Made by a program: the position numbers and the translations under genes
Part shown: piece after piece, positions 1 through 9,593 of the stretch
Layout of the letters: each line of letters begins with the position of its first letter
Numbering within the stretch: position 1 is the stretch's first letter
NCBI GenBank assembly: GCA_048939465.1
Contig: JBHLPL010000068.1
Coordinates: forward strand, 1 to 10,379
Direction of reading: 5' to 3'
DNA from: Promethearchaeota archaeon
GTDB taxonomy: Archaea; Asgardarchaeota; Odinarchaeia; Odinarchaeales; JBHLKK01
DNA length: 10,379 nt
Notes under the pieces: generated by a model
What the model saw: the letters and a program-made list of their open reading frames with translations, nothing else
Database searches by the model: none
What the model was told of the DNA's origin: nothing

Positions 1-632
1 ACGTTAATGTTTATTGCCCCCTCCCGCCTAAGATGTGAGGCTATTGATGCGAGTTTTTCCGGTGTAACGGCTACTCCACTCTCTGGATTTTGGGATATAT
101 CGTAGTTTTGGCATTACGCATGGACACGTTGGATGTGTACATTATGCGCGCACTTGAAATTACATCCAGAGAAGAAAATGGTTCCTGAAGGTACCAGAGG
201 CGCTTCCTCACCTGTGTGAAGAAATGCAGACGATACGCGGGCCGTACCATCCACCTGACAAACTCCTTTCTCCCCTTTTCCTCTGTTTATCCTACATCTG
301 TGTTCACAGAAATGACAATCTTGAAGTATTCGATTCGCGATCTCAGTTTTTAGGTCCAGATATGATGTTTCAGGAGTGGCCATGTCTTGCAGCAAAAGGT
401 CTCCTTTGTCAATATCTTTCAGAAAACTCTTGAAACGCTCGTTTAGTTTATCATGCTCTTCCCATAGTTTACTCATTTCCTCTTGTAGATCTATTTTTGT
501 TTCGATTTTCTTGCAGATTAAGAACTTGGCTGGCACCTTGTCTCCAATAATGTCATAATATCTCCCAAGACGTTCTTGAACGACTTCATCTTTCCATACA
601 CGAGCGGCATCTGGTCGAAATATCCGCCACAT
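1..632 (-). CDS. pflX: PflX-like (COG1313-type) radical SAM protein, interrupted by a 30-nt insert at 114-143; 3' part runs off the window
   Basis: Exon 1 (632-144) has CHFCEHRCRINR...GVC and FLHTGEEAPLVPSGTIFFSGCNFKCAH. After the TAA at 116-114 the same frame continues CQNYDISQNPESGVAVTPEKLASIASHLRREGAININ, the expected continuation of this family. ATG at 632 has GGAGGA upstream (644-639), preferred over the TTG at 650. Confidence 0.9.
114..143 (-). other. Putative bulge-helix-bulge (BHB) mRNA intron, 30 nt (AAUGUACACAUCCAACGUGUCCAUGCGUAA)
   Basis: 5' bulge AUA (145-143), 4-bp central helix GCGC(149-146)/GCGU(119-116), 3' bulge AAU (115-113), intron stem AUGUACAC/GUGUCCAU (7 of 8 pairs) with a 7-nt loop. 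Cutting after the 2nd nt of each bulge removes exactly 143-114 and gives TGC GCG CAT TGC (C-A-H-C). Confidence 0.82.
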
Positions 633-2008: not shown

Positions 2009-2095
2009 GAGCTTTAACTCAAGAAGTGCAGCTTAAATCTGATGAATTCTTAAATCTATTATTAATGAGAAGTGCCCATATTTCTGGGGATAATT

Positions 2096-3061
2096 GTGAC
2101 ACGAGCCAAACCAAAGTTTGTCTGCGATTGTATGCTGATGAGGCTAGGTAGATGGCTGAGACTGCTGGGCTATGATACTATACTCTCCAACATTTTGACC
2201 GATGAAGAGTTGATCCGCATAACCTCAGATGAGAATCTCACTCGAAAAATCGAACTTGCTGAGCTATTCTATCACGTCTTTCAGAGATATTCGCTTTGCG
2301 GAGACGTGTTAAGGTGTAAAGACTCGGAACACAGTATTCTGGTTAAATCACCCTGCAGGGAGTTCCATTTCAGAATCAAGACTGTCCCCGGAATTATTGC
2401 CTCGAATGACTATCAGTCAAGGAAAAGCATCTGTTATATTGTTCCAGACGAAAGTTTGGCATCTGCAAAAGGATCATATAGCCTGTCTTCAAAATTCGGG
2501 CGGGAAAACATGAACATGATTCCGGTCAGCAGTATTGGGATGTTCCCATACTTGCTCAGCGTTCTTTCCGACCAGGGAATCTTAGTGCCATGCTGGGATG
2601 GAAAAGATCTATGTACGCTCAAATTGCTTCAGGTTTGGATGAAAATAGGGGAGGCTATGCCAAATTACCATTATGATGTTGATGGTGGAGAGGGTAGGAT
2701 CCTCATTACAAGAGATGTCAATCTCTACCGACGCGCAGTAAAAAGAGGATTAGACGCGTTTTTACTGACTTCAAACCTACACACCAAACAGATTGCAGAA
2801 ATTACCCATCGCTACAATCTGGGCGTTTCTGTGAACCCTGCTCTGTCTAGATGTCCCCACTGTAACGGACGTCTTGAGAAAGCAGAGGACGTTACTAAGT
2901 TGGCGGAATTGATTCCCATTAATACTCTAAAGGCTTACAACGATTTTTGGTTGTGCAAACAGTGCAAGCAAGTGTTCTGGCAAGGAAGAATGTGGTCAAA
3001 TATCATGGATGTGGCAGAACGTGTCAAAGGCTTCAAAAATGAGCTAGAATCCACCTGCTGA
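2096..3061 (+). CDS. Mut7-C RNase domain protein (DUF82-like, PIN-related with C-terminal Zn ribbon) carrying a 153-aa in-frame insertion
   Basis: KFVCDCMLMRLGRWLRLLGYDT...DEELIRITSDE, then after the insert GRILITRD...SRCPHCNGRL...FWLCKQCKQVFWQG. GTG 2096 is preceded by GGGGA (2086-2090); the ORF track start is 2072. Confidence 0.88.
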   Translation: MTRAKPKFVCDCMLMRLGRWLRLLGYDTILSNILTDEELIRITSDENLTRKIELAELFYHVFQRYSLCGDVLRCKDSEHSILVKSPCREFHFRIKTVPGIIASNDYQSRKSICYIVPDESLASAKGSYSLSSKFGRENMNMIPVSSIGMFPYLLSVLSDQGILVPCWDGKDLCTLKLLQVWMKIGEAMPNYHYDVDGGEGRILITRDVNLYRRAVKRGLDAFLLTSNLHTKQIAEITHRYNLGVSVNPALSRCPHCNGRLEKAEDVTKLAELIPINTLKAYNDFWLCKQCKQVFWQGRMWSNIMDVAERVKGFKNELESTC

Positions 3062-8658: not shown

Positions 8659-8997
8659 ATGCATCAAAAAAACCTATCGCTTTCTGAGTTTCAAAAGAAG
8701 GTATATGGGGTTACCTCAAAAATACCAAAAGGCTCAGTTACGACATATGCTACGATAGCCAAAATCCTGGGCAACTCCTCTTTAGCCAGAGCAGTCGGTA
8801 ATGCTCTAAACAAAAATCCATTTCCGTCTGAAAAGGTTCCGTGTCATCGTGTTGTTCGAGCCAACGGAGAAGTAGGTGGCTTCGCATCTGGAACCAAAAA
8901 CAAAATCACTATGCTTGAGAAGGAAGGAATAGCAATTGTTGACGGGAGAGTTGACCTTAGAAGGTTCTCAGCCAATCCGGACCTTCTCACCCGATAG
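8659..8997 (+). CDS. ogt: Methylated-DNA-protein-cysteine methyltransferase (single-domain MGMT)
   Basis: KIPKGSVTTYATIAK...RAVGNALNKNP...VPCHRVV; the active-site Cys is retained. Confidence 0.93.
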   Translation: MHQKNLSLSEFQKKVYGVTSKIPKGSVTTYATIAKILGNSSLARAVGNALNKNPFPSEKVPCHRVVRANGEVGGFASGTKNKITMLEKEGIAIVDGRVDLRRFSANPDLLTR

Positions 8998-9068: not shown

Positions 9069-9593
9069 TTGAAAACAGCACTGTTCATTGGTAGATTCCA
9101 ACCGTTCCATAAAGGCCACCTACATGCTATCACCGAGATATTGGAAGATGTTGATGAGATCATAATCGGAATAGGGAGCGCTCAGCATAGCCATACCATA
9201 AATAACCCATTTAACGCTGGAGAACGAATTCATATGATTCGAGACTCTCTTAATGAAGACGGTATTGACCCCTCTCGCTACTATTTAGTTCCAATACCCG
9301 ATATAAACGACAATCGTCTTTGGGTGCCTCATGTTATCACACTTACTCCGCCGTTTCAGTTGGTTTATACAAATGACCCCCTGACTACTCAGCTGTTTAA
9401 TGAAGCACAATTCAAAGTTGTGCCTGTCAAATTGCATCGGAGAGAGCTGTACTGTGCCACGGAGATAAGAATGAAAATGCTGAAAGGAGAAAGTTGGGAA
9501 GAGTTGGTTCCTAAGAAAGTTGTAGAAATAATCCACGAAATTGATGGTCTTACAAGAATAAGAAAGATCGGGACTGCAAAACTCAAGATTTGA
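9069..9593 (+). CDS. nadM: Nicotinamide-nucleotide adenylyltransferase (archaeal NMNAT)
   Basis: LFIGRFQPFHKGH, IGIGSAQHSHTINNPFNAGER, W-V-H; GGAGGT RBS at 9055-9060. Confidence 0.96.
   Translation: MKTALFIGRFQPFHKGHLHAITEILEDVDEIIIGIGSAQHSHTINNPFNAGERIHMIRDSLNEDGIDPSRYYLVPIPDINDNRLWVPHVITLTPPFQLVYTNDPLTTQLFNEAQFKVVPVKLHRRELYCATEIRMKMLKGESWEELVPKKVVEIIHEIDGLTRIRKIGTAKLKI

What the first reader, a model, noticed from the sequence alone, without database searches (positions are those of the whole stretch)
111..152. 30-nt BHB micro-intron inside the [4Fe-4S] motif of a radical SAM gene
Seen: on the - strand the frame reads C-N-F-K-C-[A H N V H I Q R V H A stop]-C-Q-N-Y-D-I-S-Q, so 36 nt separate the 2nd and 3rd Cys where 6 are required. 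The RNA folds as bulge AUA / 4-bp helix GCGC:GCGU / bulge AAU, closed by a 7-of-8-bp intron stem and C150-G112, G151-C111. Known: archaeal tRNA-splicing endonuclease (EndA) cuts after the 2nd nt of each BHB bulge and RtcB ligates; cbf5 in some crenarchaea is the classic mRNA example. Applied here this removes exactly 143-114, deletes the stop and yields CNFKCAHC, a CxxxCx(aromatic)C motif. Inference: this is a protein-coding gene whose activity depends on tRNA-type splicing. Gene callers would annotate a truncated or split gene, and other 'pseudogenes' in this genome may hide similar introns.
Basis: partly seen in the sequence, partly recalled or inferred. Interest (0 to 1): 0.93.

Follow-up and report, generated by a model that had tools for sequence, protein, structure and literature searches.

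The report
tRNA-type intron inside a protein gene
A 30-base insert that breaks the iron-sulfur motif of a radical SAM enzyme gene in this Asgard archaeon is almost certainly a tRNA-type (bulge-helix-bulge) intron cut out of the mRNA, a kind of intron confirmed by experiment in only one other archaeal protein gene (cbf5).

Summary
On the minus strand the gene reads C-N-F-K-C-A-H, then 30 nt carrying an in-frame TAA, then C-Q-N-Y-D-I-S. [quoted passage not shown]

- **Gene integrity:** the rest of the gene, on an overlapping contig, is intact. The spliced 369-aa protein keeps 88 of 93 positions that are invariant in intron-less orthologues.
- **Same site in relatives:** the congener carries the same intron, with changes confined to the loop and a bulge. 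Four genomes of a sister family carry a 29-nt, frame-shifting intron at the same site, with compensatory stem changes.
- **Selection:** the exon downstream of that frameshift is under strong purifying selection (dN/dS 0.05-0.09).
- **Second site:** ten genomes of three other Asgard families have a BHB intron 13 codons upstream in the same gene.
- **Machinery:** the genome encodes a two-subunit EndA and two RtcB ligases. Its tRNA genes are intron-rich, and gcvPA and pyrG carry BHB introns too.

No RNA data exist, so splicing is inferred. This scan has noted the same phenomenon before on other Asgard DNA. The papers I could search confirm such mRNA splicing only for cbf5.

The parts
114..143 (-). 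30-nt BHB intron (phase 0, between the His codon CAT 146-144 and the Cys codon TGC 113-111); contains an in-frame TAA at 116-114
   Evidence: removal restores CNFKCAHCQNYDIS
146..151 (-). 5' exon strand of the BHB: outer-helix nucleotides G151 C150 and central-helix strand G149-C146
   Evidence: pairs conserved or compensated in 6 genomes
143..145 (-). 5' bulge A145 U144 | A143; predicted cleavage between 144 and 143
   Evidence: only this register restores the frame and motif here and in the 29-nt relatives
135..142 (-). 5' strand of the inner (intron) stem; pairs with 120-127
   Evidence: 4 of 8 inner pairs show changes on both sides between families
128..134 (-). 7-nt intron loop AUCCAAC; 4 of 7 positions differ in the congener G001 while all stem nucleotides are identical
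120..127 (-). 3' strand of the inner (intron) stem
116..119 (-). 3' strand of the central 4-bp helix (G119 C118 G117 U116), intronic
113..115 (-). 3' bulge A115 A114 | U113; predicted cleavage between 114 and 113
111..112 (-). 3' exon strand of the outer helix (G112, C111); C111 is U in G001, keeping a G-U pair
144..632 (-). exon 1 of the radical SAM gene (ATG 632-630; MWRIFRPDA... to ...CNFKCAH), 163 codons
   Evidence: (orthologues start MWR..RPDA)
1..113 (-). start of exon 2 (CQNYDISQ...); it continues on contig C93 (L021:3682-4266, minus), which overlaps the window start by 77 nt; 206 codons in all, ending ...GVIWRPVS*
   Evidence: PF04055 hit over cut-off on the C93 part; Logan contigs bridge the contig joint

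Best explanation
Window 143..114 (minus strand) is a bulge-helix-bulge intron in the pre-mRNA of a PflX-like radical SAM enzyme of an Asgard archaeon. The transcript folds locally into a 2-bp exon-exon helix, a 3-nt bulge, a 4-bp central helix, a 3-nt bulge and an 8-bp intron hairpin. The organism's tRNA-splicing endonuclease, encoded as two separate subunit genes, is inferred to cut after the second nucleotide of each bulge. RtcB is inferred to join the exons (...GCG CAU|UGC CAA...). That removes the in-frame TAA and restores the CxxxCxxC [4Fe-4S]/SAM motif as CNFKCAHC, giving a 369-aa protein. Shown here: the structure, its conservation and covariation, the integrity of both exons and the selection on them, and the presence of the enzymes. 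Inferred: the cleavage and ligation themselves, and their efficiency.
For: (1) BHB geometry sits exactly at the insert's borders.
(2) The spliced product aligns without a gap to 12 intron-less orthologues and keeps 88 of 93 invariant positions. One orthologue (L019) naturally reads CAHC.
(3) Exon 2 is intact and hits PF04055 over the cut-off.
(4) The congener G001 has the same intron. Its differences are 4 in the 7-nt loop, 1 in a bulge (synonymous) and a C-to-U that keeps a G-U outer pair; none is in a stem.
(5) Four genomes of a sister family (G003-G006) have a 29-nt intron at the identical site with the same geometry. Over the 6 sequences 92.9% of cells are paired and 5 pairs change on both sides; no shuffle reaches the observed pairing or covariation score.
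(6) In those four genomes the insert shifts the frame, yet exon 2 shows dN/dS 0.05-0.09 at dS 0.8-2.2. So exon 2 is translated in register with exon 1.
(7) A second BHB intron (27, 28, 31 or 33 nt) lies 13 codons upstream (SGT|IFF) in 10 genomes of three other Asgard families. It always restores PSGTIFF; 93.7% of cells are paired and 6 pairs are compensatory.
(8) The genome has two EndA genes that match the N- and C-terminal halves of the two-repeat EndA model, plus two RtcB genes.
(9) 19 of the 25 tRNA genes ARAGORN finds have introns. gcvPA (29 nt) and pyrG (31 nt) carry BHB introns that restore conserved motifs.
(10) Independent DNA assemblies carry the insert, and no intron-less DNA form was seen.
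Against: There is no RNA evidence of any kind: no spliced junction, no excised or circular intron, no peptide. The exon-exon (outer) helix has only 2 bp, followed by a U-C mismatch, so the motif is at the weak end of strict hBHBh'. The inner stem has one U-C mismatch. The radical SAM gene tree does not place G000 with G003-G006; the branches are long and support is weak, so common descent of the site-A intron rests on position, geometry and taxonomy rather than on the tree. The six site-A sequences are only two lineages, so the compensatory changes are few independent events.
Confidence: 0.88

Rival explanations
1. Pseudogene: a radical SAM gene inactivated by a 30-nt insertion that brings a stop codon; the hairpin-like fold is incidental.
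For: Read literally, the frame ends after 172 aa. No expression data exist.
Against: Exon 2 is intact over 206 codons and 88 of 93 invariant positions are kept. The insert has persisted in two families whose synonymous sites are saturated, while exon 2 has dN/dS 0.05-0.09. The stems co-vary. The cut sites predicted from the structure alone restore the motif exactly.
Confidence: 0.03
2. Split gene: two separate polypeptides (an N-terminal domain ending at the TAA, and a C-terminal radical SAM barrel) are made and assemble, with the Fe-S motif shared between them.
For: Both parts are conserved and under selection. Split genes are known in some archaea (my own knowledge, not tested here).
Against: Exon 2 starts directly with the third Cys codon. 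The two ATGs at the intron's 3' end are in other frames, and the first in-frame Met of exon 2 lies about 50 codons downstream, beyond the invariant CQNYDIS and GGDPTPN blocks. A split gene does not explain the BHB geometry, the covariation, or a second BHB insert at another site of the same gene.
Confidence: 0.03
3. Translational recoding: the ribosome bypasses or reads through the insert (gene-60-like hop, or stop read-through plus frameshift), without RNA splicing.
For: The insert is short, structured and contains a stop, which are superficial features of bypass elements (my own knowledge of T4 gene 60).
Against: Read-through here would put 12 residues between Cys2 and Cys3 and destroy the CxxC spacing. 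There are no matching take-off and landing codons: the second CAT is followed by GCG TAA. Relatives have inserts of 27, 28, 29, 30, 31 and 33 nt at two sites, and what they share is the BHB geometry with cuts after the 2nd bulge nucleotide, not codon identities. The genome is rich in the same motif in tRNA genes, where translation plays no part.
Confidence: 0.03

Closest known systems
cbf5 pre-mRNA intron of Crenarchaeota (Watanabe 2002; Yoshinari 2006; Yokobori 2009, PMC2738675)
   Same: It is a short BHB intron inside a protein-coding sequence, removed by the tRNA-splicing endonuclease of a lineage with a hetero-oligomeric, broad-specificity EndA. Gene callers mis-annotate it as a frameshift or split gene, and it shows lineage-specific gain and loss.
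   Different: The host gene (radical SAM versus pseudouridine synthase) and the phylum (Asgard versus Desulfurococcales/Sulfolobales) both differ. Here the same gene carries introns at two different sites in different families. Splicing of cbf5 was shown experimentally; here it is only inferred. PMC2738675 states that no archaeal pre-mRNA splicing had been confirmed for genes other than cbf5.
[quoted passage not shown]
   Same: The motif is the same (4-bp helix between two 3-nt bulges). The size class is the same: tRNA introns run 11-129 nt with medians of 12-25. The presumed enzymes are the same. The own genome has intron-rich tRNA genes.
   Different: The substrate is an mRNA with no tRNA body. 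The exonic half of the motif must at the same time encode Cys-Ala-His. Neither Asgard paper mentions introns in protein-coding genes.
IRE1/RtcB unconventional splicing of HAC1/XBP1 mRNA in eukaryotes (mentioned in PMC13149111; the rest is my own knowledge)
   Same: Both remove a very short intron from an mRNA without the spliceosome, by a protein endonuclease followed by RtcB-type ligation, and both change the reading of the downstream frame.
   Different: IRE1 is unrelated to EndA and recognises paired stem-loops, not a BHB. That system is a stress-regulated switch, and no regulation is shown here.

Membership tests
Archaeal BHB (EndA/RtcB-spliced) intron | 4-bp central helix flanked by two 3-nt bulges on opposite strands | tested here: met
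   GCGC:GCGU with bulges AUA and AAU. The central helix is 100% paired in all 6 site-A sequences.
Archaeal BHB (EndA/RtcB-spliced) intron | Flanking helices h and h' on both sides (strict hBHBh') | tested here: met
   The outer helix has 2 bp (G151-C111, C150-G112), which is minimal. The inner helix has 7 of 8 bp. The requirement of at least 2 bp is from my memory of Marck and Grosjean 2003, which I did not read here.
Archaeal BHB (EndA/RtcB-spliced) intron | Cleavage at the symmetric bulge positions yields a functional mature RNA | tested here: met
   In silico only. The cut after the 2nd bulge nucleotide restores CxxxCxxC and a full-length, gap-free alignment. The same rule restores the frame in 15 introns of six lengths (27, 28, 29, 30, 31, 33 nt) at two sites.
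Archaeal BHB (EndA/RtcB-spliced) intron | Structure conserved with compensatory changes in relatives | tested here: met
   site A: 5 pairs changed on both sides; site B: 6 pairs. The slid controls are far lower.
Archaeal BHB (EndA/RtcB-spliced) intron | Splicing endonuclease and RNA ligase encoded by the organism | tested here: met
   Two EndA genes with PF01974 and PF02778, matching the two halves of the two-repeat EndA model. Two RtcB genes.
Archaeal BHB (EndA/RtcB-spliced) intron | Spliced RNA or excised intron observed, or cleavage shown in vitro | not testable with these tools
   No RNA run was listed for this DNA.
Radical SAM superfamily (host gene) | CxxxCxxC cluster motif at the start of a PF04055 domain | tested here: met
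   The motif exists only after removal of 143..114. Exon 2 hits PF04055 positions 27-166 at 40.7 bits against a cut-off of 29.5. Intact orthologues hit PF04055 and PF13353. No NCBIfam equivalog reaches its cut-off, so the specific function is unknown.
cbf5 intron family (homology to the known mRNA intron) | Located in the cbf5/TruB-family gene at the conserved site | tested here: not met
   The host gene is a radical SAM enzyme. It works like the cbf5 intron but is not a member of that intron lineage.

The most novel reading that the evidence does not exclude
This intron is one instance of pervasive, ancient tRNA-type splicing of mRNAs in Asgard archaea. Many housekeeping and metabolic genes of this order would be interrupted by 19-33-nt BHB introns that predate family-level divergence. 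EndA/RtcB would then be a general mRNA-maturation machinery in the closest prokaryotic relatives of eukaryotes, and intron retention (here a 172-aa N-terminal product versus the full enzyme) could serve as a regulatory layer.
Probability: 0.6. Interest if true: 0.92.

Novelty: new member of a known kind. Interest (0 to 1): 0.8.

Why it matters
For more than twenty years cbf5 has been the only archaeal protein-coding gene with confirmed tRNA-type splicing.

- **New lineage and scale:** a second, unrelated gene carries such introns at two independent sites, conserved across families of Asgard archaea. It lies in a genome where at least two further genes (gcvPA, pyrG) carry them. This suggests mRNA splicing by the tRNA endonuclease is a regular part of gene expression in the lineage closest to eukaryotes.
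- **Annotation:** standard gene callers will report these genes as truncated, frameshifted or absent. That distorts metabolic reconstructions and completeness estimates for Asgard genomes.
- **Experimental handle:** it gives a simple substrate, a 60-80-nt RNA, for testing the specificity of a two-subunit Asgard EndA.

Tried and rejected
- **MFE folding** of 95-170 gives another structure with z = 0.44. Thermodynamic folding does not favour two 3-nt bulges, so I gave it no weight.
- **Genome-wide scan** for BHB motifs whose removal joins two long open frames. Observed counts (279, 170, 93, 57) equal the chance expectation (284, 155, 90, 58), because adjacent same-strand genes pass the test. The screen is not specific and gives no estimate of intron number. 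The finding's own intron lies too near the contig end to be scored by it.
- **Two BHB-like hits in this window** (8681-8705 and 9519-9553, plus strand) are such gene-junction chance hits.
- **RNA evidence:** no RNA holder was listed.
- **DNA contigs of run X7** stop at 108 and resume at 145. A part without cover is not evidence.
- **ARAGORN intron borders as a calibration of the cut rule:** only 2 of 19 agree exactly with a BHB. ARAGORN models a single anticodon-loop intron, so the test is uninformative.
- **Repeat search:** the intron and its BHB have no other copy in the genome, so it is not a repetitive mobile element.
- **Gene tree**: neither a single nor a multiple origin of the site-A or site-B introns can be decided. 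Branches are long, and one origin is not ruled out.
- **Motif searches** for kae1 and ahcY introns reported by earlier notes found no anchor with my patterns. They remain untested, not refuted.
- **Split matches** in G090, G103, G195 and G232 are contig-end truncations, not introns. G326 is a single partial match that I did not follow up.

Full report
**What is in the sequence.**
The window is one whole contig (C127) of a 1.96-Mb, 152-contig genome with 43% G+C. On the minus strand an ORF starts at ATG 632 (MWRIFRPDA...) and reads ...FFSGCNFKCAH NVHIQRVHA stop CQNYDISQ.... Thirty-six nucleotides therefore separate the second and third Cys codons, where every intact orthologue has six. The gene runs off the window at position 1. 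Contig C93 overlaps the window start by 77 nt and carries the rest. Public contigs of three runs bridge that joint. After the stop the same frame stays open for 206 codons and ends ...GVIWRPVS, as the orthologues do.

**The BHB.**
- The outer pairs are G151-C111 and C150-G112.
- The central helix is GCGC (149-146) with GCGU (119-116).
- The bulges are AUA (145-143) and AAU (115-113).
- The inner stem is 142-135 with 127-120 (7 of 8 pairs) and closes a 7-nt loop.

Cutting after the second nucleotide of each bulge removes 143..114, deletes the TAA and gives CNFKCAHC. Motifs of the relaxed form used in the scan occur at 1.6e-4 per position-length pair in this genome. Only about seven placements of a 30-nt deletion would restore the spacing, so coincidence is about 1e-3 or less. 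Plain MFE folding does not find the motif. I expect that for bulged structures and do not count it.

**The gene is otherwise healthy.**
The spliced 369-aa product aligns without a gap at the junction to 12 intron-less orthologues. It keeps 88 of their 93 invariant positions, and the five changes are conservative. One intron-less orthologue (L019) reads GCNLRCAHCQNYDIS, the same CAHC as predicted. Exon 2 hits PF04055 (Radical_SAM) over the cut-off from profile position 27 onward, so the missing first part of the domain is what the intron interrupts. Intact orthologues hit PF04055 and PF13353. They reach no NCBIfam equivalog cut-off; the nearest are activases of glycyl-radical enzymes and NrdG. 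The enzyme's specific function is unknown. The label 'PflX-like' is from my own knowledge.

**Relatives with the same intron (site A).**
The congener G001 has the same 30-nt insert. Its differences from the window are four in the 7-nt loop, one in the 5' bulge (a synonymous CAT to CAC) and C111 to U, which keeps a G-U pair. No stem nucleotide differs.

Four genomes of the only other family found in the same order (G003-G006) carry a 29-nt insert at exactly the same place: TGC GCG TAT | 29 nt | TGC CAG. The geometry is the same: outer GC:GC, central GCGU:ACGC or GCGU:GCGU, bulges AUA and ACU or AAU, and a 7-bp inner stem.

On the six-sequence alignment 92.9% of cells pair and five pairs change on both sides. 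No shuffle of 500 reaches the observed pairing or covariation score. The odd-numbered slides give 2.5-8.3% pairing. Slides of plus or minus 2 give 56-67%, because of the GC-repeat.

Twenty-nine nucleotides shift the frame, yet exon 2 in these four genomes has dN/dS 0.05-0.09 at dS 0.8-2.2, and exon 1 has 0.13-0.28. The downstream frame has thus been kept by selection through long divergence while the insert stayed. That excludes a pseudogene and requires that the insert be removed before or during decoding.

**A second intron site in the same gene (site B).**
Ten genomes of three other families of the same phylum have an insert of 27, 28, 31 or 33 nt between SGT and IFF, 13 codons upstream of site A, in phase 1. 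They are f7 (G011, G021, G138, G139, G140), f19 (G040, G141) and f25 (G145, G146, G147). In nine of them the flanks were checked and form a BHB: central GCAC or GUAC with GUGC, and bulges AAA or AAU with AAU or AUU. In all ten the canonical cuts give PSGTIFF. For G145 the border pattern fits the same motif, but its pairs were not scored. The inner stems differ completely between families (CGCCAGAG/CUCUGGCG, GAAUUGAAA/UUUCAAUUC, CGCUGGAUG/CGUCCAGCG). Here 93.7% of cells pair and six pairs are compensatory, against 34-53% pairing in the slid controls. Most of the 357 Asgard genomes with a match have an uninterrupted gene. Several other weak or split matches are contig-end truncations.

**Who and with what machinery.**
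Named records identical to relatives of the same phylum are Baldr-, Borr-, Wukong-, Hod-, Sif-, Hel-, Thor- and Atabeyarchaeia. The organism is therefore an Asgard archaeon. Its DNA occurs in mangrove and sediment metagenomes. I suspect the order is Odinarchaeia-like, because one same-order genome is a single 1.42-Mb contig. That is from memory and was not tested.

The genome encodes two EndA proteins of 204 and 191 aa, each with PF02778 and PF01974. They match the C-terminal and the N-terminal repeat of the two-repeat EndA model respectively. I read this as a two-subunit enzyme. That the two-subunit type has broad substrate specificity is from the literature (PMC5829648 abstract). The genome also has two RtcB genes, one apparently with an insertion.

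ARAGORN finds only 25 tRNA genes, 19 of them with an intron. This fits the published intron richness of Asgard tRNA genes (PMC11291895; preprint 10.64898/2026.10.13.758758). In the same genome I verified a 29-nt BHB intron in gcvPA that restores YTPYQAEISQG and a 31-nt one in pyrG that restores SGIGKG.

**Rivals.**
- **Pseudogene:** excluded by the selection and covariation data.
- **Split gene with two polypeptides:** exon 2 begins with the third Cys codon and has no in-frame start before the invariant CQNYDIS and GGDPTPN blocks. This reading also does not explain the BHB.
- **Translational bypass or read-through:** read-through would give Cx12C. There are no matching take-off and landing codons. 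The feature shared by 15 inserts of six lengths at two sites is the BHB cut geometry, not codons.
- **Assembly artefact:** excluded by independent contigs.
- **Mobile repeat:** there is no other copy in the genome.

**What is not shown.**
No RNA data could be found, so cleavage, ligation and their efficiency are inferred. The outer helix has only two pairs. Whether the site-A introns of the two families descend from one insertion is likely from position and geometry but is not resolved by the gene tree. My genome-wide ORF-restoration screen was not specific, so I give no intron count.

**Comparison with what is known, and novelty.**
The searchable literature confirms BHB splicing of an archaeal mRNA only for cbf5 of Desulfurococcales and Sulfolobales. 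PMC2738675 says other cases were only predicted. Reviews up to 2025 cite only those papers. The Asgard papers I read report tRNA introns only. I found no paper on introns in radical SAM genes or in Asgard mRNAs.

Earlier notes of this scan describe the same phenomenon on other Asgard DNA and on other pieces of this genome, including the site-B intron and the 29-nt site-A intron. I reached sites A and B in relatives independently, and I checked the gcvPA and pyrG notes myself.

I class the finding as a new member of a known kind (a BHB intron in an mRNA) in a new gene and a new phylum. It probably belongs to a much wider pattern.

Noticed in passing
L020, L022, L023, L110-L114, L123, L124 (G011, G021, G040, G138-G141, G145-G147): A second BHB intron site (27, 28, 31 or 33 nt, phase 1, between SGT and IFF) in the same radical SAM gene in three other Asgard families. 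The inner stems are fully compensated.
   Followed up: yes
G000 C150 around 6524 (+) and G000 C116 around 20794 (-): gcvPA carries a 29-nt BHB intron and pyrG a 31-nt one in the same genome. Removal restores YTPYQAEISQG and SGIGKG. The pyrG inner stem is very weak.
   Followed up: yes
G000 C31:2961-5708 (-) (L140): One of the two RtcB genes lies in a 973-aa open frame, with the Pfam match split (profile 1-57 and 45-426) about 1.4 kb apart. This looks like an intein or another large in-frame insertion.
   Followed up: no
window 2072-3061 (+): A 329-aa ORF has a Mut7-C RNase domain matched in two stretches (best stretch residues 207-312, profile 41-143). That suggests an insertion of roughly 150 aa inside the domain.
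   Followed up: no
whole genome G000: ARAGORN finds only 25 tRNA genes, 19 with an intron. Only 2 of its 19 intron borders coincide with a BHB, which is consistent with many tRNA genes having several non-canonical introns that the program cannot model.
   Followed up: partly
window 1-77 / G000 C93:4190-4266: The assembly is broken 37 nt downstream of the intron, although the two contigs overlap by 77 nt and public contigs bridge the joint. The congener's contig (G001 C76) also ends just downstream of the intron.
   Followed up: partly
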